The notes under the pieces are model-generated. The model was not told the DNA's origin. It saw only the letters and a program-made list of their open reading frames with translations, and ran no database searches. Below are positions 2,651 to 10,599 of a stretch of DNA of 12,008 nucleotides, in pieces. Both the position numbers and the translations under genes were made by a program. Numbering within the stretch: position 1 is the stretch's first letter; the number at the start of each line of letters is the position of its first letter. The stretch is from a virus (Duplodnaviria; Heunggongvirae; Uroviricota; Caudoviricetes), in IMG/VR virus record IMGVR_UViG_643348545_000014; one strand, written 5' to 3'.

Positions 2651-3208
2651 ATGGTTGCCGTAAATCATATACCACACCTTGTACACACACAAACGGCCTT
2701 TGTGTGGCGTTTTCTGGCCCTGAATATCGGAGAAAAAAACCGCTTGATCGCCACCAGCAAAAATGGCTATGATTCCCGCGCACCTCATAAAACGGGTGTC
2801 GGGATTAGCCTCCTGAAAACAACTGAAGCGCACAGCACGCGCCCCGCGTGTTTTTTTGTGCCGCATAGTCACACCTTATCAATGGTGGGCTGTACGGGGG
2901 CGGAGCAATCCGCGCCGGTTTCTTCAGTGTCCGGTAAGGCTAACCCTGTACAGTCCGCCACCAGCGAAATTAGCCTTTTGCGTGGCGGTTATCTTAACCA
3001 CACTGAGGAGGCTGCCAACATGGCTACTATCCCTACCCTTGTACATTCTCAAACCGCATTTATCTGGCGCTTTATCATCTTTGGCGCGTCAGAATCTCAA
3101 ATCATCCACGTAACCGCCTGGACGGAACGCGAAGCGCGTAGCCGTTGCCCGTCCGGTTGTATTGCGGTATTCGCCGCCCGTATTCGTCAGGGGGTGTGCC
3201 ATGCCTGA
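2651..3208 (+). CDS. Hypothetical protein with internal tandem duplication (shared motif LVH[TS]QTAF[VI]WRF); may be two genes (2651.. and 3020..3208)
   Basis: ATG 2651 has an AGGAG RBS 5 nt upstream; in-frame ATG 3020 has a GAGGAGG RBS 8 nt upstream. The two halves are paralogous at the protein level with diverged nucleotides, which argues for coding selection. Confidence 0.45.
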   Translation: MVAVNHIPHLVHTQTAFVWRFLALNIGEKNRLIATSKNGYDSRAPHKTGVGISLLKTTEAHSTRPACFFVPHSHTLSMVGCTGAEQSAPVSSVSGKANPVQSATSEISLLRGGYLNHTEEAANMATIPTLVHSQTAFIWRFIIFGASESQIIHVTAWTEREARSRCPSGCIAVFAARIRQGVCHA

Positions 3209-3527: not shown

Positions 3528-3827
3528 ATGAGAACATATTTATCTGGCTTGACTGCCAGCGGTTATGCACACCCCAAAATTATCCCCGGCGCTATTTATC
3601 TGGATAAGAACGGTAACAGAGTAACGGTAAAAGAACTGATGTTTGACCGTGTTTATTTTATCCGTGATGGATATTCATTTCTTAGTTCGCTGAACGTGGA
3701 GATCTTTATTTGCAGATTCCGGCGGGAAATCCCGACTTCCAGAAATAACCATGTGTCACGTGTGGATGTGGATAAAAAACTACAGGAACTGAAAAACATG
3801 ATTGCCGCGTGGAGAGAGCAGAAATGA
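3528..3827 (+). CDS. Hypothetical protein (99 aa)
   Basis: GGGGA RBS 9 nt upstream; its stop overlaps the primase ATG (ATGA), indicating translational coupling. Confidence 0.5.
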   Translation: MRTYLSGLTASGYAHPKIIPGAIYLDKNGNRVTVKELMFDRVYFIRDGYSFLSSLNVEIFICRFRREIPTSRNNHVSRVDVDKKLQELKNMIAAWREQK

Positions 3828-5965
3828 AAAAAGCGCCAAATTTAAAACACCAGCCGCGTGACAAAATGACGGAAGTCATCATTTTTGCGGGTAGTGATGC
3901 CTGGGCACATGCGAAACAGTGGCAGGAACAGGACGGGCGACTGGCTGGCGATAACGTGCCTCCTGTCTGGCTTGGAGAGCAACAACTTGCCGAACTGGAT
4001 AAGCTGCAAATTGTGCCGGAAGGCCGAAAATCAGTACGCATATTCAGGGCCGGACATCTTGAGCCAGTAATGATCAAGGCGATTGGTCAGAAGCTGGCGG
4101 CGGCAGGCGTACAGGATGCAAATTTTTACCCTGATGGAATGCACGGTCAGGAGGTGGAGAACTGGCGCGAATATCTGGCCCGTGAGCGGCAGAATCTTTC
4201 TGATGGTCTGGTTATTGAGTTTCCGGTAAAGAAAAAAGATACCGGAAGCCATAGCGATGACGAATTAAAGCCACGCGTTGAAAGTCGCGCCGATGGTGTT
4301 TTCTGGGTAACGCCCAAAGTGGATAAGCAGTCAGGCGAAATTATCCGGCCTGAGACGTGGTTATGTTCTCCGCTTGAACTACTGGGAACGGGGACGATCG
4401 GTAAAGAGCATTACCGCGTCATGCGCTGGAAAAAATTAGCAAATCATGAAGTCATCACAATGGCGATCCCGTGTGGTGGCATTGGCGACCGTGACGGCTG
4501 GCGGTTGCTTAAAGATCACGGGCTGAACGTGACAACAAACGGCAAATACAGGGCTATCCTGGCTGACTGGATGCAGTTAAGCGGAAGCCATGAGGAATGG
4601 CAGTTAAGCACAACAACGGGCTGGCATTTTGACGCGTACATCATGCCGGACGGTTCAATCATTGGTGATTCTGAAAAACCGATCCTGTTTACCGGAAAAA
4701 GTGCCGCTATTAATGGCTATTCGGTTGCGGGTACGGCGGAGGGCTGGCGCGACAGCGTGGCGCGGCTGGCTGGTGGCAATCCGTCCATGATGCTGGGTAT
4801 TGCCACGTCACTGGCAGCACCGTTGATTGGCCTTGTTGGTGCTGACGGCTTCGGGGTACATCTTTTCGAACAGTCATCGGCAGGGAAAACCACCACGCAG
4901 AACATCGCATCAAGTTTATGGGGAGAGCCAGACTCACAACGGCTGACCTGGTACGGCACAGCGTTAGGTATCGCTAACGAGGCAGAGTCGCACAACGACG
5001 GGCTGTTACCCTTGGATGAAATAGGCCAGGCCGGAAACGCGCGGGAGGTGTCCACGTCAGCCTATACGTTGTTTAACGGTTCCGGGAAATTACAGGGGGC
5101 GAAGGACGGCGGCAACCGGGAGATAAAACACTGGCGCACGGTGGCAATCAGCACCGGAGAAATGGACGTTGAGACATTCCTCAAAACGGAGGGGATAAAA
5201 GTCAAAGCGGGGCAGCTTGTCCGCCTGCTTAACGTTCCGATGGAAAAAGCCACGCACTTTCACGAATACAGCACCGGAAAGGCGCACGCAGACGCGTTAA
5301 AGGATGCCTGGACAGAAAATCACGGGGCAGCGGGTCGTGAGTGGGTTAAATGGCTGGCAGGCCACCAGCAGGAGGCAAAGGATACGGTAAGGGAATGCCG
5401 CGAACGGTGGCGCAACCTGATACCGGAGAGCTACGGCGAGCAGGTCCACCGCGTGGGTGAGCGTTTCGCCATACTGGAGGCCGCGCTTGTGCTTTCCGGT
5501 CATGTAACTGGCTGGGCCGCGCAGGAATGCCGGGACGCAATACAGCATAACTTTAATGCCTGGGTGAAGGAGTTCGGCACGGGTAACAGGGAATTTAAAC
5601 AGATGGTTGAACAGGCTGAGGCGTTTTTGTCGTCGTTCGGGTTCAGTCGATACCTTCCTTACCCAAACAGTGATGAACGTGATTTACCGATTAAAGACCT
5701 TGCCGGATACAGAAAGGGGAGTATCAGAAATGAAGATGATGAGTTCCGTTTTTACACGTTTCCTCATGTGTTTGAGGGGGAGATCGCACAGGGATTTAAC
5801 CCGTCCCACTTTGCCCGCGCGTTGAGTGCTGCAGGAATGCTGGAAGCGGGTAACGATCGCCGTTACAAGAAAAAGGCGCTCGGCAAAATTGGGGGGAAGC
5901 AGCATGTTTTTTACGTACTGATGTTCCAGCCTGAGGCAGAAGATTACCCCCCCTGTGTGAGGTGA
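3824..5965 (+). CDS. Satellite replication protein: primase/replicase with a P-loop NTPase-like segment (Pri-Rep-like)
   Basis: About 713 aa from ATG 3824 (GGAGAG RBS; the ORF track begins at GTG 3809). Contains a P-loop-like SSAGKTT. Large size, position after alpA, and the iteron array immediately downstream all fit a replication initiator. Family assignment is by layout and motif only. Confidence 0.75.
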   Translation: MKKAPNLKHQPRDKMTEVIIFAGSDAWAHAKQWQEQDGRLAGDNVPPVWLGEQQLAELDKLQIVPEGRKSVRIFRAGHLEPVMIKAIGQKLAAAGVQDANFYPDGMHGQEVENWREYLARERQNLSDGLVIEFPVKKKDTGSHSDDELKPRVESRADGVFWVTPKVDKQSGEIIRPETWLCSPLELLGTGTIGKEHYRVMRWKKLANHEVITMAIPCGGIGDRDGWRLLKDHGLNVTTNGKYRAILADWMQLSGSHEEWQLSTTTGWHFDAYIMPDGSIIGDSEKPILFTGKSAAINGYSVAGTAEGWRDSVARLAGGNPSMMLGIATSLAAPLIGLVGADGFGVHLFEQSSAGKTTTQNIASSLWGEPDSQRLTWYGTALGIANEAESHNDGLLPLDEIGQAGNAREVSTSAYTLFNGSGKLQGAKDGGNREIKHWRTVAISTGEMDVETFLKTEGIKVKAGQLVRLLNVPMEKATHFHEYSTGKAHADALKDAWTENHGAAGREWVKWLAGHQQEAKDTVRECRERWRNLIPESYGEQVHRVGERFAILEAALVLSGHVTGWAAQECRDAIQHNFNAWVKEFGTGNREFKQMVEQAEAFLSSFGFSRYLPYPNSDERDLPIKDLAGYRKGSIRNEDDEFRFYTFPHVFEGEIAQGFNPSHFARALSAAGMLEAGNDRRYKKKALGKIGGKQHVFYVLMFQPEAEDYPPCVR

Positions 5966-6286: not shown

Positions 6287-6563
6287 CTGTTTTGTATATA
6301 TATACGAAAAATTGAGATCTGAACTATGAAGTCAAACCGCAAACAACCACACTACCGCGCTATTGACCTTACAGAGCACTGGCTGAGAGTGGCGATAAAA
6401 ATCATCGACCGAAACACGGGGAAGGATATGCAAAAGCACATCCCGAACTGATAAGCGCATTCATGACAACGGCGGCGGCAAACTTTGCCACGATGACAGA
6501 ACGGGAGATTGCCGAAGCGGAACAGGTGACAACCATCAACGTTAAAACCGGAGAGCAGACAGC

Positions 6564-6986
6564 ATGACAGCACAGATAGCGGCTTACGGGCGGCTGGTGG
6601 CTGACCCGCAGTTAAAGACCACCAGCAAGGGTACACAAATGACGATGGCTAGTATGGCGGTCCCCCTTCCGTGCAGCCAGGCAGATGACGGAACGGCGAC
6701 GATGTGGTTATCCGTCCTGGCGTTTGGCAGACAGGCCGACGCACTGGCAAAACACCACAAAGGCGAACTGGTGAGCGTGGCGGGTAACATGCAGGTAAGC
6801 CAGTGGACAGGCCAGAACGGCGAAACGCGGCAGGGCTGGCAGGTTATCGCAGACAGCGTAATCAGTGCGAGAACGGCGCGACCGGGCGGCAAAAAAGGCC
6901 AGCAGGGGCAGGCTACTGACGCACTGAACAGGGCAAAACAACAGGCGGGTAACGATGATCCGTACGGGGATAACATACCGTTTTAA
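6564..6986 (+). CDS. ssb: Single-stranded DNA-binding protein (SSB-like, OB fold)
   Basis: WLSVLAFGRQADALAKHHKGELVSVAGNMQVSQWTGQNGETRQGWQVIADSV aligns with the E. coli SSB core [50 protein letters not shown] (recalled). The C-terminal tail DDPYGDNIPF resembles the SSB DDDIPF tail. Confidence 0.75.
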   Translation: MTAQIAAYGRLVADPQLKTTSKGTQMTMASMAVPLPCSQADDGTATMWLSVLAFGRQADALAKHHKGELVSVAGNMQVSQWTGQNGETRQGWQVIADSVISARTARPGGKKGQQGQATDALNRAKQQAGNDDPYGDNIPF

Positions 6987-7001
6987 GCGACGAGTGACAG
7001 A

Positions 7002-7024
7002 AGCCGGAGCAATCCGGCTTTTTT
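7002..7024 (+). terminator. Rho-independent terminator after ssb
   Basis: Stem AGCCGGA / TCCGGCT, loop GCAA, then T6. Nearly identical to the terminator at 9443-9467. Confidence 0.6.
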
Positions 7025-7075
7025 ACGGGTTCTCCTGGCGGGGTGGGCCTGAACACGGGGCGGGAGGCGCGGAAA
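7021..7075 (+). other. Degenerate cos-like sequence (cosQ-like ACGGGTTCTCC, cosN-like ACGGGGCGGGAGGCGCGG)
   Basis: Direct-repeat relationship with the intact cos region at 9444-9515: the first ~30 nt are near identical, then sequence diverges. Confidence 0.4.
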
Positions 7076-7203
7076 AAAGCGCATTTTTGTGATTTTATCG
7101 TCATCATCATCATGAGCGTAATTTATTGTTTTTAATTGTTTTGATGCAAAAAAGATGATGGTTGTGGTTAATTTTTGTTCGACATCTTTGCAGGCAGATA
7201 AAA

Positions 7204-7240
7204 AAGCCCGATAAGGTCAGAGGTGGCTTATCGGGCTTTT
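7204..7240 (+). terminator. Hairpin terminator (bidirectional-looking)
   Basis: 12-bp perfect stem AAGCCCGATAAG / CTTATCGGGCTT with an 11-nt loop, flanked by an A-run upstream and a T-run downstream. Confidence 0.5.
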
Positions 7241-7317
7241 GCATATGAGGTTTTTTGGTGCACTGACACACATGATCGGGATAATCATTTCATAATTTGC
7301 AACACAACTCAATATCA

Positions 7318-7373
7318 TTGCACAAAATGCAATCATGATTATAATCATAACTGGATGAACATCCAGTTATGAT
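7318..7373 (+). promoter_or_regulatory. Head-operon promoter candidate (TTGCAC-16 bp-TATAAT) overlapped by two perfect palindromes (operator candidates)
   Basis: -35 TTGCAC at 7318-7323 and -10 TATAAT at 7340-7345. 14-bp palindrome ATGATTATAATCAT at 7335-7348; 30-bp palindrome ATCATAACTGGATG-AA-CATCCAGTTATGAT at 7344-7373, followed by T6. Confidence 0.5.
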
Positions 7374-7401
7374 TTTTTAAGTCAAAGAGGAATTTCTTAC
7401 T

Positions 7402-7608
7402 ATGGCTGAAGAGAAAAAAGGCGGTATTTCGGTGTACATAAGCCCCGACATCGTGAAGGCGCTCAAGGAACGCCACCAGCAGAACGTAAAAGCAGGCATT
7501 GCGGCAGGACTTGATCCGCTGGCGATGGTTGAGCCGTCAACAGGCTGGCAGGTACGCGCCTATTTACGCGCGGCGCTGGGTATGAATCAGGTTCACGGGG
7601 GTGAATAA
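7402..7608 (+). CDS. Hypothetical small protein (68 aa) translationally coupled to the major capsid gene
   Basis: AAGAGG RBS; its stop overlaps the capsid ATG (TAATG). Function unknown. Confidence 0.5.
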   Translation: MAEEKKGGISVYISPDIVKALKERHQQNVKAGIAAGLDPLAMVEPSTGWQVRAYLRAALGMNQVHGGE

Positions 7609-8663
7609 TGACAGTAAAAGCAATATCACTTAACACTAACCAGCTTTTTGCGTACCTGAATCGCGAGGATATTGCGGAATTTAAATTCAGTCCGCTGTTT
7701 ACCGCGCTGTTTTTCCCGAACGTGGCGACATTCAACACACAGGACATCATGTTAGATAACCTGGATATTGAAGAAGTCACTATGTCGGCGTTTTGTTCGC
7801 CTATGGTGGGTAGCCAGGTTCAGCGCGATAAAGGGTACGAAACAAGCATTATTCGCCCTGGCTACATGAAGCCAAAACACGAAATCGATCCATTAAAAAC
7901 AATAATGCGCATGGCTGGAGAAGATCCAGCACAGCTTAACGACCCTACCTACCGCCGTATGCGCCTGATTACTGGCAACATGCGCCGCCAGATAAACGCC
8001 ATTAAAGCGCGCGTGGAATGGCTGGCGGTAAATGCGGTAACGACCGGAAAAAACATCATTGAGGGCGAAGGCATAGAGCGCTATGAAATCGACTGGAAGA
8101 TACCGGAAAAAAACATCATAGAGCAGGCCGACGGTAAAAAATGGTCAGAGCAGGACAAAGACATACACGACCCAATCTATGACATTGAGCTATACGCAGA
8201 TCAGGCAGGTTGCCCCGCAAACGTCATGATTATGGGCGTTGATGTATGGCGCATGTTACGCAGCTTTAAAAAATTCCGTGAACTGTACGATCTCTCCCGT
8301 GGTTCAGAATCCGCCGCAGAGCTGGCATGTAAAAACCTGGGCGAAGTGGTGAGCTTTAAAGGCTATCTTGGTGATCTGGCCCTTATCGTCTATTCCGGCA
8401 AATACACTGACAGCGACGGCACAGAAAAATATTTCCTTGAGCCTGATTTGCTGGTCCTGGGCAACACCAACAATAAAGGGCTGGTGGCCTATGGTGCGAT
8501 TATGGAACAGGAAGCGGTAAGAACGGGCGCAACGCAAAACATGTTTTACCCGAAAAACTGGATTGAGGACGGCGATCCGGCGATTGAGTACGTGCAGACG
8601 CACAGCGCACCGCAGCCGGTTCCGGCAGATATTCGCAAATTTGTTACCGTCAAAATTGGTTAA
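7608..8663 (+). CDS. Major capsid protein, lambda gpE-like
   Basis: 351 aa. Multiple conserved blocks against lambda gpE (recalled): FKFSPLFTALFF vs FKFDPLFLRLFF; PGYMKPKHEIDP vs PGYVKPKHEVNP; EDPAQLNDPTYRRMR vs EDPQNLADPAYRRRR; GYLGDLALIVYSGKY vs GMYGDVAIVVYSGQY; YPKNWIEDGDPA vs YPKNWVTTGDPA. Confidence 0.9.
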   Translation: MTVKAISLNTNQLFAYLNREDIAEFKFSPLFTALFFPNVATFNTQDIMLDNLDIEEVTMSAFCSPMVGSQVQRDKGYETSIIRPGYMKPKHEIDPLKTIMRMAGEDPAQLNDPTYRRMRLITGNMRRQINAIKARVEWLAVNAVTTGKNIIEGEGIERYEIDWKIPEKNIIEQADGKKWSEQDKDIHDPIYDIELYADQAGCPANVMIMGVDVWRMLRSFKKFRELYDLSRGSESAAELACKNLGEVVSFKGYLGDLALIVYSGKYTDSDGTEKYFLEPDLLVLGNTNNKGLVAYGAIMEQEAVRTGATQNMFYPKNWIEDGDPAIEYVQTHSAPQPVPADIRKFVTVKIG

Positions 8664-8675
8664 CGGGGGGATTCT

Positions 8676-9011
8676 ATGGACACTCCATACATTGAGTTAT
8701 TTGCAGGCAGTCAGCAGGTATCCACGACGCTGGTACATTTTGCCGCTGATGCTGGCGTTATTCAGGAATTTACCCCGCTGATGCTGGCGGACAATGGCGA
8801 GTTTAAGCCGTGGGATGGTCAGGAATCTGGCAAGGCTGTTTATCTGACTTCGTACCCCGTGGACACGTCAAAGCAGAAATCAGCACAGTGTTACAAGACG
8901 GGGATATTTAATATCGCCGCCGTAAACTGGCCTGAGAGCGCCGACACTGACGCGAAAAAATGCGCCGCCTTTGCGGGTTCTGGCGTATCCGTTCAGCCGC
9001 TGGCGCGATAA
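8676..9011 (+). CDS. Head decoration protein, lambda gpD-like
   Basis: 111 aa. Matches to lambda gpD (recalled): TPLMLAD vs TPLMLD, WDG, YKTGIF vs YKSGTF, WPESADTDAKKCAAFAGSGVSV vs [28 protein letters not shown] RBS. Confidence 0.8.
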   Translation: MDTPYIELFAGSQQVSTTLVHFAADAGVIQEFTPLMLADNGEFKPWDGQESGKAVYLTSYPVDTSKQKSAQCYKTGIFNIAAVNWPESADTDAKKCAAFAGSGVSVQPLAR

Positions 9012-9023
9012 GCAGGGGAAACG

Positions 9024-9437
9024 ATGGCAACGAATGAAAGCATCATGGCGCTACCGCTGGCGAGTAAATTTAAAGCAGAAGCGCGGGCAATGGCTGACAG
9101 AGGTTTATCAACCTACGAGGCCGTATATCAACTCAACAAACTGGAAGAACAGGACAAGCCGCGCGCTGATGCGATTATGGCGCTTCATGAACATAACGAC
9201 TATCAGCCGCTGTTACGTGCAATGGCAAACGTGCCATGTATTAGCGTCGATAATGCTCGTGAAATCCTGAACATGACCATAGAGCAGGAGCGCCCAAAGG
9301 TTGCACCAGAGCTTACCGCAGCCTTTGAAAACTTTATGGACATGCACAGCCCGCAAGCCGTATCAGCTGGCATGGCGTACGATGGCAGAAACCAGGGCGA
9401 TGACGGCGACATCGATCGCATACTGAAAACCATCTGA
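9024..9437 (+). CDS. Hypothetical protein (137 aa), last gene of the head operon, immediately upstream of cos
   Basis: AGGGGA RBS; followed by a terminator and cos. No family recognised; its position is analogous to lambda FI. Confidence 0.55.
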   Translation: MATNESIMALPLASKFKAEARAMADRGLSTYEAVYQLNKLEEQDKPRADAIMALHEHNDYQPLLRAMANVPCISVDNAREILNMTIEQERPKVAPELTAAFENFMDMHSPQAVSAGMAYDGRNQGDDGDIDRILKTI

Positions 9438-9442
9438 GACAA

Positions 9443-9467
9443 GGCCGGAGAAATCCGGCTTTTTTTT
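9443..9467 (+). terminator. Rho-independent terminator
   Basis: Stem GCCGGA / TCCGGC, loop GAAA, then T8. Confidence 0.6.
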
Positions 9468-9667
9468 ACGGGTCCTTTCCGGCATATGGACCCGTTACGG
9501 GGCGGCGACCTCGCGCGTTTTCACTATTTATGAAAATTTTCCGGGATCCATGTCCGGTTTCTCTGCAAGTTAACCATATGAAAAATATAAAAACATGCTT
9601 TCTATGAACCGGACATGCGCAAAAAACAGACACTAAAACCGGACATCGTACCCGTTAACCGGAAGTG
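9468..9667 (+). other. Lambda-type cos site (cosQ-like, cosN, and a cosB-like region with distinct repeats)
   Basis: ACGGGTCCTTTCCGG ... CCGTTACG|GGGCGGCGACCT CGCGCGTTTTCACTATTTATGAAAATTTTCCGG is near-identical to the lambda cos junction as recalled; the 12-nt cohesive-end sequence is at 9500-9511. Downstream are four AACCGGACAT-like elements (9550-9559 inverted; 9607-9616, 9637-9646, 9658-9667 direct) around an AT-rich segment, resembling the lambda R3-I1-R2-R1 layout but with a different repeat sequence. Confidence 0.8.
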
Positions 9668-9839
9668 TGCAAAAATCACACGCATTGCTGCGCGTGATTA
9701 ACAATTTATCGGCTTTACTGTTCTGTATAGGCTGGGTGGCGTCATGCCGTAGCCGTTCTCCGTGCCAGCATGGAATAATCCGTAGTTACAGAGCGGTAAA
9801 GTTAAAAATCACTTTCTGTTACGCCATCAAATACGCGAT

Positions 9840-10066
9840 ACAACAACCTTGTGTTTTTACAAAACCATTTGATATCATTGAATTTTTTCACATTAATGAC
9901 ATCAAAATACATCGTAAGGTTGTTGTATTTATTTTATTTTTACCTTACTTATCAATTAGATATACCAAACAATTAAACAACAACCACCCCCTCAAAAAAT
10001 CTCATAAATAGCGAAAAACCGCGAGGTCGCCGCCCCGTAACGGGCCATAATTCCAGGAAGGACCCG
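9840..10066 (-). other. Second cos-like site in inverted orientation (cosQ-like, cosN-like, and its own three 9-mer repeats)
   Basis: 10020-10044 is the exact reverse complement of 9491-9515 (25 bp). The reverse complement of 10012-10066 reads CGGGTCCTTCCTGG..CCCGTTACGGGGCGGCGACCTCGCGGTTTTTCGCTATTTATGAGATTTTTT. Adjacent repeats ACAACAACC at 9840-9848 and 9977-9985, GGTTGTTGT at 9918-9926. Confidence 0.6.
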
Positions 10067-10099
10067 ACGACACCAGACTATCAGAACGATGGGGGCACA

Positions 10100-10381
10100 A
10101 TGACAGAAGCCGAAATACTGGGATTAATCCGCCGCGTTGCCGGAATCAGCCAGCAGGTTGACGAACAGGCCACGCAGCCGGACAGCGTGACCGCTGAAAA
10201 TTATGCGCGTGTTGTTGCGGAGGTGATGCGCCGTGATGGTATAGAACTTAATGGCGTGGATATGCGCAACATACGAACCAGAGTTCTTGAGTTGCTGGCC
10301 TACCGTCGCCGCGTGGAGATGTATCGGGAGAAGGAGAAAATAACGTACCACTGGAAGAAGCCGGAGCGGTTGCGGCGGTAA
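10100..10381 (+). CDS. Hypothetical protein (93 aa) downstream of the cos pair
   Basis: GGGGG RBS 4 nt upstream of the ATG. Charged, helical-looking sequence; no family recognised. Confidence 0.5.
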   Translation: MTEAEILGLIRRVAGISQQVDEQATQPDSVTAENYARVVAEVMRRDGIELNGVDMRNIRTRVLELLAYRRRVEMYREKEKITYHWKKPERLRR

Positions 10382-10599
10382 CTGGTTGATATTCCCGACG
10401 GACCAAAAATGGGTGGCTACATCCCTCGCTTCTGAGGACTGTTAACAAGCTGCCTGAAAGACAGTCACAAACTACGAAATTTTCGCAGTTTAATTAATGA
10501 TCAGCTTAATCGCTCACCCGCTGATATTTTCGGAAACCTCAATTTGAGGAAGTCGGCGCGGTAACTCGCTGAACTTTAAGCAAAGCGCAAAATTGCGCT

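What the first reader, a model, noticed from the sequence alone, without database searches (positions are those of the whole stretch)
7002..9473. Head module bracketed by direct repeats of a terminator-plus-cosQ cassette, with a degenerate cos-like copy at the upstream end
The sequence GCCGGAG(C/A)AATCCGGCTTTTTTACGGGT(T/C)C occurs at 7004-7031 and 9444-9472, so the ~2.4-kb capsid operon lies between direct repeats. The upstream copy continues into a diverged cosQ/cosN-like stretch (ACGGGGCGGGAGGCGCGG at about 7057-7075), followed by GATGATG-type short repeats (7108-7121 inverted, 7155-7168 direct). This looks like a footprint of modular acquisition or exchange of the head module by recombination at cos, or a decayed ancestral cos.
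Basis: seen in the sequence. Interest (0 to 1): 0.6.

Follow-up and report, generated by a model that had tools for sequence, protein, structure and literature searches.

The report
Third, different-type cos site in satellite
The supposedly decayed packaging-site copy upstream of the capsid genes of this E. coli phage satellite is an almost intact packaging (cos) site of a different group of lambda-like phages, so the satellite carries packaging signals for two kinds of helper phage, and such paired sites mark where capsid modules are gained, lost or swapped.

Summary
The repeat is real: GCCGGAG(C/A)AATCCGGC-T6-8-ACGGGTYCT occurs at 7003-7033 and 9444-9476, and none is expected by chance. The window is an EcCICFT073-like phage-inducible chromosomal island (PICI). 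The downstream copy (C1) and an inverted partner (C2, 10024-10065) match the two lambda-type cos sites published for EcCICFT073.

The upstream copy (U, 7003-7189) is not a decayed lambda cos. It is collinear, from cosQ to the end of cosB, with the cos region between Rz and the terminase genes of VT1-Sakai/Sp15-type and Stx2 prophages (93-95% identity). Against 30 unique phage copies it differs at one invariant position, cosQ GGGTCCT>GGGTTCT. The GATGATG repeats are the R-like elements of that cosB.

The shared hairpin is a family-wide gene-end terminator, found elsewhere without cos. The shared cosQ/cosN-left reflects deep homology between two cos classes, not duplication.

Paired direct cos sites around a head module recur across the family, including islands with a ClpP-capsid fusion module. 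One island is an exact cos-by-cos recombinant lacking the module. The published EcCICFT073 lacks U.

U is far more conserved than synonymous sites of its flanking genes. However, cosQ is damaged more often at this position than in phages. Function is therefore likely but unproven.

The parts
6564..6986 (+). ssb gene; last gene of the replication module. U directly follows it.
   Evidence: Pfam SSB E=4e-16. In 22 unique related islands a U-class cos starts about 70 nt after ssb.
7003..7024 (+). T1: intrinsic terminator hairpin GCCGGAGCAATCCGGC plus T6; left arm of the direct repeat.
   Evidence: Fold -15.4 kcal/mol, z = -3.5. Repeat statistics. The same hairpin occurs at other gene ends without cos in L004 and CFT073.
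7027..7033 (+). cosQ-equivalent heptamer GGGTTCT, with one C>T change from GGGTCCT at 7031.
   Evidence: It lies 31 nt upstream of the cosN-equivalent, against 30 in C1. Position 7031 is C in 30 of 30 unique phage type-d copies.
7055..7071 (+). cosN-equivalent of U: ACG|GGGCGGGAGGCG|CG. The left half is identical to lambda and the right half is class-specific.
   Evidence: Hybrid cos sites in L185, L032 and L154 carry the U-class 12-mer GGGCGGGAGCGG exactly where lambda has GGGCGGCGACCT.
7072..7189 (+). cosB of U (called type d here): R3-like CGTCATCATCATCATG at 7099-7114, an A/T-rich stretch, inverted R2-like AAAAAGATGATGGTTGTGG at 7149-7167, and R1-like TTTTTGTTCGACATCTTT at 7172-7189.
   Evidence: Collinear with the cos region of VT1-Sakai and 29 other unique phage copies and with the capsid-adjacent cos of ClpP-MCP islands. 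All invariant phage columns are kept.
7200..7242 (.). Strong hairpin that marks the left boundary of the head module.
   Evidence: -24.3 kcal/mol, z = -4.1. Islands without U match the window from 7200 onward.
7402..9437 (+). Head module: 68-aa ORF (7402-7608), gpE-like major capsid protein (7608-8663), gpD-like decoration protein (8676-9011), 137-aa ORF (9024-9437).
   Evidence: Pfam Phage_cap_E E=4e-49 and HDPD E=1e-17. PHROG hits. Homologous to c1499/c1500 of EcCICFT073 (PMC6092414).
9444..9467 (+). T2: terminator hairpin GCCGGAGAAATCCGGC plus T8; right arm of the direct repeat.
9470..9511 (+). C1: lambda-type cosQ (GGGTCCT, 9470-9476) and cosN (cohesive-end 12-mer GGGCGGCGACCT, 9500-9511).
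   Evidence: Aligns with lambda cos over 82 nt. Coordinates.
9512..9734 (+). cosB region of C1, with CATGTCCGG / CCGGACAT repeats.
   Evidence: 94% identical, in inverted orientation, to the cosB attached to the inverted cos of CFT073.
10024..10065 (-). C2: second lambda-type cosQ+cosN, inverted relative to C1.
   Evidence: 72-nt inverted repeat I1 at 83%. The same inverted pair is present in CFT073.

Best explanation
The window is an EcCICFT073-like cos-type PICI that carries three cos sites. C1 (+) and C2 (-) are the lambda-type pair already described for EcCICFT073. The upstream copy U (7003-7189) is a complete cos site (cosQ, cosN, cosB) of a second lambda-like packaging class. That class belongs to VT1-Sakai/Sp15, several Stx2 prophages and mEp460. 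These phages have a PHROG-141/DUF1441-type small terminase and a large terminase only 24% identical to lambda gpA.

The direct repeat arises for two reasons. Each cos sits right after a gene-end terminator that this island family reuses at module ends. [quoted passage not shown]

Inferred mechanism: during induction by a VT1-class helper, that helper's TerS would bind the GATGATG-type R elements of U. TerL would nick at 7058-7069, and packaging would run rightward through the head module and around the island concatemer. No Rpp adaptor would be needed, because U's cosB matches the helper's own. This would give the island a second helper class beside the lambda/phi80 type.

Two cos sites in direct orientation also provide homology for recombination that inserts, deletes or swaps the head module.

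Shown here: the homology, completeness, position, conservation and recombinant relatives. Inferred: actual cutting and packaging at U. In this particular island the single cosQ substitution may weaken termination at U.
For: (1) blastn of 6995-7115 hits 18 phage records, and 7020-7115 is 93-95% identical to VT1-Sakai and Stx2 phages. The hit lies between Rz and the small and large terminase genes and at position 2-57 of the mEp460_4F5 record.

(2) In 82 unique IMG/VR phage sites the motif sits 160-240 nt upstream of the terS and terL homologues and downstream of Rz.

(3) Similarity to the phage cos runs to 7189 and includes all R-like repeats. Against 30 unique phage copies the window differs at one invariant column (7031) and two variable ones. 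The consensus of ssb-adjacent copies has 0 novel bases in 123 invariant columns and 5 in 44 variable ones, Fisher p=0.001.

(4) U is 98-100% identical among islands whose flanking genes have dS of 0.28 (ssb) and 0.19-0.26 (capsid).

(5) The same type-d cos is the only intact cos of ClpP-MCP islands embedded in VT1-class prophages that carry a type-d cos themselves, for example L178.

(6) VT1 TerL is 24% identical to lambda gpA (E=1e-18), and TerS shows no BLASTP similarity and falls in a different PHROG.

(7) L028 is an exact cos-by-cos recombinant without a head module.

(8) Architecture counts in 61 islands.
Against: No experiment shows cutting at this cos class; the cut positions are inferred by analogy with lambda. 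No paper in the searchable library gives these cohesive-end sequences.

The window's cosQ carries a change at a position invariant in phages. cosQ is damaged in 7 of 22 unique ssb-adjacent copies against 1 of 99 phage or capsid-adjacent copies, p=2e-5. In the type-c lineage the cosN core is also altered, which points to relaxed constraint at this position.

No VT1-class phage cos was found among the 45 IMG/VR hits from the window's own source genome.

The model island EcCICFT073 and 21 of 61 sampled islands do without U. High conservation could also reflect recent spread of this segment by recombination. The IMG/VR sample was drawn by motif and capped, so frequencies are not population estimates.
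Confidence: 0.6

Rival explanations
1. U is a real cos of the VT1/mEp460 class but is now a functionless relic. The ancestor had ssb-cos-terS-like-p93, as in L028. A head module with its own cos was inserted downstream, the new cos took over, and the old one is slowly decaying.
For: L028 has this architecture. cosQ is mutated in 7 of 22 ssb-adjacent copies against 1 of 99 others, including the window. In type-c islands the ssb-adjacent copy has AGGTACT in place of cosQ in most unique copies (sequence list) and seven cosN variants, while six phage copies are uniform. In helper-embedded islands the capsid-adjacent copy, not the ssb-adjacent one, matches the helper. Many islands, including EcCICFT073, lack U.
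Against: cosB and the right flank are as conserved as in phages: divergence from the phage consensus is 0.088 against 0.081. There are no novel bases in 123 invariant columns. Divergence among islands is 0-2% where flanking dS is 0.2-0.3. A neutral relic should diverge at least as fast as synonymous sites.
Confidence: 0.3
2. One reading: U is a diverged duplicate of the island's own lambda-type cos (C1), left behind by duplication or recombination at cos.
For: Shared hairpin, cosQ box, spacing and ACGGGGCGG.
Against: U matches a different phage cos at 93-95% over about 170 nt, including a cosB unrelated to that of C1 (23 of 90 identities, i.e. random level). The U/C1 similarity is what any two lambda-like cos classes share. 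The hairpin occurs independently of cos.
Confidence: 0.03
3. The repeat is only a generic terminator used twice, and the rest is chance.
For: The hairpin is a family-wide terminator found at several gene ends.
Against: The cosQ-spacer-cosN motif occurs 3 times against 0 expected, and U aligns with phage cos over its whole length.
Confidence: 0.02
4. U is kept for TerS binding rather than for cutting. It would act as a cosB decoy that titrates the small terminase of VT1-class phages (interference), or as the island's replication origin with GATGATG iterons.
For: At the ssb-adjacent position cosB is conserved while cosQ and, in type c, cosN drift. The stretch is A/T-rich, carries repeats and lies next to replication genes.
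Against: There is no direct evidence. The window's cosN and flanks are intact. The repeats are those of the phage cosB next to terS, not island-specific iterons. In related PICIs ori is placed downstream of pri (PMC10111431), and there is a 600-nt gap between pri and ssb.
Confidence: 0.05

Closest known systems
cos1/cos2 of PICI EcCICFT073 (Fillol-Salom 2018, PMC6092414; 2019, PMC6739421; Murialdo & Feiss 2022, PMC9026076)
   Same: Same island family and gene order. C1 and C2 of the window correspond to the published pair with lambda-identical cosN. In CFT073 they are likewise inverted and flank rppA.
   Different: EcCICFT073 has no U: its ssb/PerC terminator abuts the head module directly. 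U has a different cosN right half and a phage-identical cosB, so it should need no Rpp. The window has lost rpp apart from a 22-codon remnant.
Bacteriophage lambda cos (cosQ-cosN-cosB)
   Same: cosQ heptamer about 30 nt upstream; ACG|GGGCGG left half; flanking CG; cosB with an R3-like element about 40-57 nt in, an inverted R2-like element and a direct R1-like element (architecture as described in PMC4669245).
   Different: The right half of the 12-mer and the whole of cosB differ. The spacer between GGGCGGG and CGCGG varies from 3 to 5 nt within the class. The cognate TerL is only 24% identical to gpA, and TerS is unrelated by BLASTP.
cos region of VT1-Sakai (Sp15), Stx2 prophages such as Stx2_95, CP-1639, 1720a-02 and mEp460
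   Same: 93-95% (mEp460 about 81%) identity to U. Identical order of elements, in the phage cos position between Rz and terS.
   Different: In phages the site is preceded by a different small hairpin and followed by terS. In the window it is preceded by the island terminator and followed by the head module, and cosQ carries C>T.
SaPIbov4/SaPIbov5, cos-type staphylococcal islands
   Same: Satellites that carry the helper's cos and a capsid-protein homologue. SaPIbov4 is reported to have two putative cos sites (PMC6092414).
   Different: Unrelated sequences and helpers. No report in the papers read of cos sites of two different terminase classes in one island.

Membership tests
lambda-like cos site (cosQ-cosN-cosB) | 7-bp cosQ GGGTCCT about 30 bp upstream of the cohesive-end sequence | tested here: inconclusive
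   U has GGGTTCT (6 of 7) at 31 nt. Sister islands and 29 of 30 unique phage type-d copies have the intact heptamer; one copy could not be scored.
lambda-like cos site (cosQ-cosN-cosB) | cosN with conserved left half GGGCGG and flanking CG dinucleotides; bp 7-12 free to vary (PMC4669245) | tested here: met
   ACG|GGGCGGGAGGCG|CG at 7055-7071. The hybrid cos in L185 places the class 12-mer exactly in lambda's position.
lambda-like cos site (cosQ-cosN-cosB) | cosB with TerS-binding R elements (R3, inverted R2, R1) and an IHF site between R3 and R2 | tested here: inconclusive
   R-like repeats are present in the expected order and orientation and are invariant across phage copies. Only one 1-mismatch IHF-consensus match was found, at 7131 on the minus strand. 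Binding was not tested.
lambda-like cos site (cosQ-cosN-cosB) | Lies immediately upstream of the terminase genes in the cognate phage | tested here: met
   82 unique phage sites lie 160-240 nt upstream of terS/terL homologues.
lambda-like cos site (cosQ-cosN-cosB) | Cut by terminase to give 12-nt 5' cohesive ends; supports packaging | not testable with these tools
   No end-mapping data were found. The mEp460_4F5 record starts 1 nt before the motif but not at a defined nick.
EcCICFT073-type Gram-negative cos PICI | Integrase, replication module with primase, and unidirectional organisation in an island of about 11 kb | tested here: met
   Integrase, DUF927 primase, DUF4222 and SSB. Same order as CFT073. 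alpA was not specifically identified here.
EcCICFT073-type Gram-negative cos PICI | cos site(s) with lambda-like cosQ/cosN and non-phage cosB | tested here: met
   C1 and C2.
EcCICFT073-type Gram-negative cos PICI | rpp gene (redirecting phage packaging) next to cos | tested here: not met
   Only a 22-codon remnant with a stop at 9731-9796. Intact Rpp homologues (PDB 6HLK, E=2e-31) occur in sister islands and CFT073.
capsid-forming PICI (cf-PICI) | Own terminase, portal, protease and head-tail connectors in addition to the capsid protein | tested here: not met
   Only a capsid protein, a decoration protein and two small ORFs are present; there is no terminase or portal.
Rho-independent terminator | G+C-rich hairpin followed by a T run at a gene end | tested here: met
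   Both repeat arms.

The most novel reading that the evidence does not exclude
EcCICFT073-like PICIs use a multi-helper packaging cassette: a swappable head module flanked by two direct cos sites of different TerS specificity. The capsid type and the downstream cos would be matched to one helper class, and the ssb-adjacent cos would serve another. The frequent loss of cosQ, but not cosB, at the ssb-adjacent site would then be adaptive. It would keep initiation or TerS capture there while preventing termination at the wrong cos, which would otherwise give molecules with mismatched ends that lack the head module.
Probability: 0.2. Interest if true: 0.7.

Novelty: new variant of a known kind. 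Interest (0 to 1): 0.5.

Why it matters
cos-type PICIs are thought to ride lambda/phi80-type helpers through two lambda-like cos sites plus the Rpp adaptor. The model island has no U, so published experiments could not see it. A complete cos of a separate terminase class, the one used by Stx1/Stx2-converting prophages, sits in a large subgroup of these islands, including the one in the probiotic strain Nissle 1917. 381 records from 384 of the 5,426 complete E. coli genomes hold at least 80% of the 121-nt hairpin-plus-cos query. This predicts a second, untested helper range that links these islands to Shiga-toxin phages. It also offers a testable reason for the unexplained PICI capsid genes, because capsid type and adjacent cos type co-vary. 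Finally, it shows concretely how head modules are exchanged by recombination between cos sites.

Tried and rejected
(1) Plain pairwise alignment of U with C1, C2 and lambda suggested similarity limited to hairpin plus cosQ. That was misleading until phage homologues were found.

(2) I first labelled the 93-aa ORF at 10100-10381 'Rpp-like'. It is PHROG 1561 of unknown function. The true Rpp is a 144-146-aa protein between the two lambda-type cos sites in sister islands.

(3) The species-representative genome scan gave 28 hits. By record title only the two Escherichia hits fit the known distribution. None of the 28 loci was inspected, so it adds little.

(4) The co-residence test was negative: none of the 45 IMG/VR phage type-d loci comes from the window's source genome. 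This is uninformative, because helpers can arrive by infection.

(5) The IHF consensus scan gave only one 1-mismatch site.

(6) Rfam found nothing in 6500-10400.

(7) Literature searches for a third cos in PICIs and for the cohesive-end 12-mers found nothing relevant. Vahanian et al. 2017 on cosN natural history is not held.

(8) The replication-origin reading was considered and set aside, because the repeats are those of the phage cosB.
Full report
**What the window is.** The ORFs and domain hits are an integrase (1-1242), an Ash-like protein, DUF4222, a DUF927 primase (3809-5965) and SSB (6564-6986). These are followed by a 68-aa ORF, a gpE-like major capsid protein (7608-8663), a gpD-like decoration protein (8676-9011) and a 137-aa ORF (9024-9437). 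The order matches the Gram-negative phage-inducible chromosomal island EcCICFT073. That island's capsid (c1499) and decoration (c1500) genes and two cos sites are published (PMC6092414, PMC6739421). The first 10,381 bases of the window are identical in layout to IMG/VR contig UViG_2541047968_000018 (L218).

**Checking the observation.** GCCGGAGMAATCCGGCTTTTTT occurs at 7003-7024 and 9444-9465 and nowhere else, with none in 200 shuffles. With a 2-T length difference the repeat runs on through ACGGGTYCT. Both copies fold as terminator hairpins. The composite cosQ-spacer-cosN-left motif occurs three times against zero expected: at 7027 (+), 9470 (+) and 10065 (-). There is also an inverted third copy, C2, which forms a 72-nt inverted repeat with C1 (I1).

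**The downstream sites.** C1 aligns with lambda cos across cosQ, the 12-nt cohesive-end sequence GGGCGGCGACCT (9500-9511) and the first 35 nt to its right. C2 does the same on the minus strand. In CFT073 the same pair is present, also inverted, and flanks rppA. These are the published cos1 and cos2.

**The upstream site is a different cos, not a decayed one.**
- blastn of 6995-7115 against phage records shows 7020-7115 at 93-95% identity to VT1-Sakai (Sp15) and several Stx2 prophages. It is about 87% identical to CP-1639 and 1720a-02, and about 81% to mEp460.
- In VT1-Sakai the match lies between Rz and the small and large terminase genes, which is the cos position. In the mEp460_4F5 record it lies at bases 2-57.
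- A pattern scan of IMG/VR gave 120 loci. In 82 unique phage sites the motif is 160-240 nt upstream of homologues of the VT1 terS and terL genes, and downstream of Rz.
- Similarity to the phage cos runs from the T run to 7189. It includes CGTCATCATCATCATG (7099-7114), the inverted AAAAAGATGATGGTTGTGG (7149-7167) and TTTTTGTTCGACATCTTT (7172-7189).
- This arrangement, an R3-like, an inverted R2-like and a direct R1-like element, is the complex cosB architecture described for lambda-like phages (PMC4669245).
- Against 30 unique phage copies of this cosB type (called type d here), the window differs at one invariant column, 7031, which turns cosQ GGGTCCT into GGGTTCT. It also differs at two variable columns.
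- This phage class is a separate packaging system. VT1 TerL is 24% identical to lambda gpA (E=1e-18). Its TerS has no BLASTP similarity to Nu1 and falls in PHROG 141 rather than PHROG 57.

**Why the repeat exists.** The hairpin is a family-wide gene-end terminator. In CFT073 and L004 it occurs after ssb/PerC followed directly by the head module, with no cos. In IMG/VR it occurs one to three times per island. cosQ and ACGGGGCGG are shared because the two cos classes are homologous. Beyond them, U and C1 are unrelated (23 of 90 identities in cosB). The repeat is thus a reused terminator plus the conserved core of any lambda-like cos, not a duplication.

**Family architecture.** I looked at 61 IMG/VR islands that span ssb to the 93-aa ORF. 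This sample was drawn by motif and capped, so the counts are not population frequencies.

| Islands | cos after ssb | Head module | Later cos sites |
|---|---|---|---|
| 21 | none | gpE-type | +lambda, -lambda (the CFT073 type) |
| 12 | U-class | ClpP-protease/capsid fusion | second U-class, direct orientation |
| 9 | U-class | gpE-type | +lambda, -lambda (window type; also Nissle 1917, L010) |
| 3 | U-class | gpE-type | hybrid cos |
| 1 (L028) | U-class | none | none |

Fifteen islands have other architectures and are not listed in this table.

- The hybrid cos has lambda-like flanks but the U-class 12-mer GGGCGGGAGCGG.
- Capsid type and the cos after it co-vary: gpE-type goes with lambda-type cos, and the ClpP fusion goes with U-class cos.
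- L028 has the left part of the ssb-adjacent copy and the right part of the capsid-adjacent copy of an L003-like island, with the crossover inside cosN. It is either the deletion product or the ancestor.
- Breakpoints of similarity to other islands fall at 7096-7112, 7200 and 9545-9546. These are inside or at the edge of cos sites.

**Is U functional?**

Evidence for:
- The consensus of ssb-adjacent type-d copies has no novel base in 123 columns that are invariant in 18 phage or capsid-adjacent copies. It has five in the 44 variable columns (p=0.001).
- U is 98-100% identical among islands whose ssb has dS about 0.28 and whose capsid gene has dS 0.19-0.26.
- The same type-d cos is the intact, helper-matching cos of islands embedded in VT1-class prophages, for example L178.

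Evidence against:
- cosQ is damaged in 7 of 22 unique ssb-adjacent copies but in 1 of 99 phage or capsid-adjacent copies (p=2e-5).
- In the type-c lineage the ssb-adjacent copies have AGGTACT in place of cosQ in most unique copies (sequence list) and seven cosN variants, while six phage copies are uniform.
- Divergence from the phage consensus is raised 2.5- to 4.4-fold in the cosQ segment but little in cosB.
- No VT1-class phage was seen in the window's own source genome.
- Recombination could mimic conservation.

My reading is that U is a working or recently working initiation site for VT1-class helpers, and that cosQ is under relaxed or negative selection at this position. The Feiss laboratory showed for lambda, 21 and N15 that termination needs cosQ and cosN but not cosB specificity, and that bp 7-12 of the cohesive end can vary (PMC4669245). 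A second cosQ-proficient cos in direct orientation could therefore terminate packaging at the wrong place. That would explain its loss. This step is inference, and with TerL only 24% identical the extrapolation is uncertain.

**Comparison with what is known.** cos-type PICIs with two lambda-like cos sites and Rpp are established. The model island lacks U. The papers read, and searches for a third cos or for these 12-mers, found no description of a heterologous-class cos in these islands. I rate it a new variant of a known kind.

**Verdict.** 'Decayed copy' is rejected. 'Module exchange at cos' is supported. The identity of U as a VT1/Sp15-class cos is near certain. Its present function is likely but unproven.

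Noticed in passing
window 9469-9540 (+) and 9995-10066 (-): Two lambda-type cos sites face each other as a 72-nt inverted repeat (83%), with only about 450 nt between the arms. In sister islands the whole unit from one cosN motif through its inverted partner measures 757-886 nt (542 nt in the window) and holds an Rpp homologue or a Nu1-like small terminase.
   Followed up: partly
window 9731-9796 (+); 9469-9734: This island has lost rpp. Only a 22-codon C-terminal remnant with an internal stop is left. C1 carries, in direct orientation, the cosB that in CFT073 belongs to the inverted cos (94% identical, inverted). This suggests inversion and deletion between the inverted cos repeats.
   Followed up: partly
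window 2780-2965 (+): Rfam gathering-score hits to isrK Hfq-binding RNA (2780-2856) and C4 antisense RNA (2878-2965) in the regulatory region of the island.
   Followed up: no
window 7343-7374 and 7200-7242: A perfect 15-nt inverted repeat (AATCATAACTGGATG/CATCCAGTTATGATT) followed by a T run sits just upstream of the capsid operon. A strong hairpin sits at the module's left edge. The 7193-7401 block is 96-98% conserved among the type-A islands whose flanks differ more (77% in the two hybrid-cos islands). It may be an operator or an antitermination target.
   Followed up: no
L185, L032, L154 (downstream of the 137-aa ORF): Hybrid cos sites have lambda-like cosQ, left flank and right flank, but the 12-mer GGGCGGGAGCGG of the mEp460 class replaces GGGCGGCGACCT. 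In L185 and L032 both cos sites of the island then share the same 12-mer.
   Followed up: partly
phage loci such as L021, L030, L018, L019 (cosN): Prophages with 98-100% identical large terminases have 3- or 4-nt spacers (CGG, TCGG, CGGG) between GGGCGGG and CGCGG, and the mEp460 group has 5 nt. How a fixed 12-nt stagger tolerates this length variation is unexplained.
   Followed up: no
L178, L187, L095, L015, L186, L217: In these loci an island sits right after a phage cos and small terminase gene. In L178 the large terminase gene resumes after the island; the large terminase gene lies outside the other five loci. This matches the helper-embedded PICIs of PMC10111431.
   Followed up: no
window 9024-9437: The 137-aa ORF is PHROG 1999 of unknown function, with a weak match (E=7e-10) to the C-terminal part of a head-maturation-protease family. 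RefSeq annotates some homologues as 'head-tail connector'. It may be scaffold-like.
   Followed up: no
L173, L167 (cos after the 137-aa ORF): Further natural cosN variants occur in sister islands: GGGCGGCAGACG and GGGCGTCGACCT.
   Followed up: no
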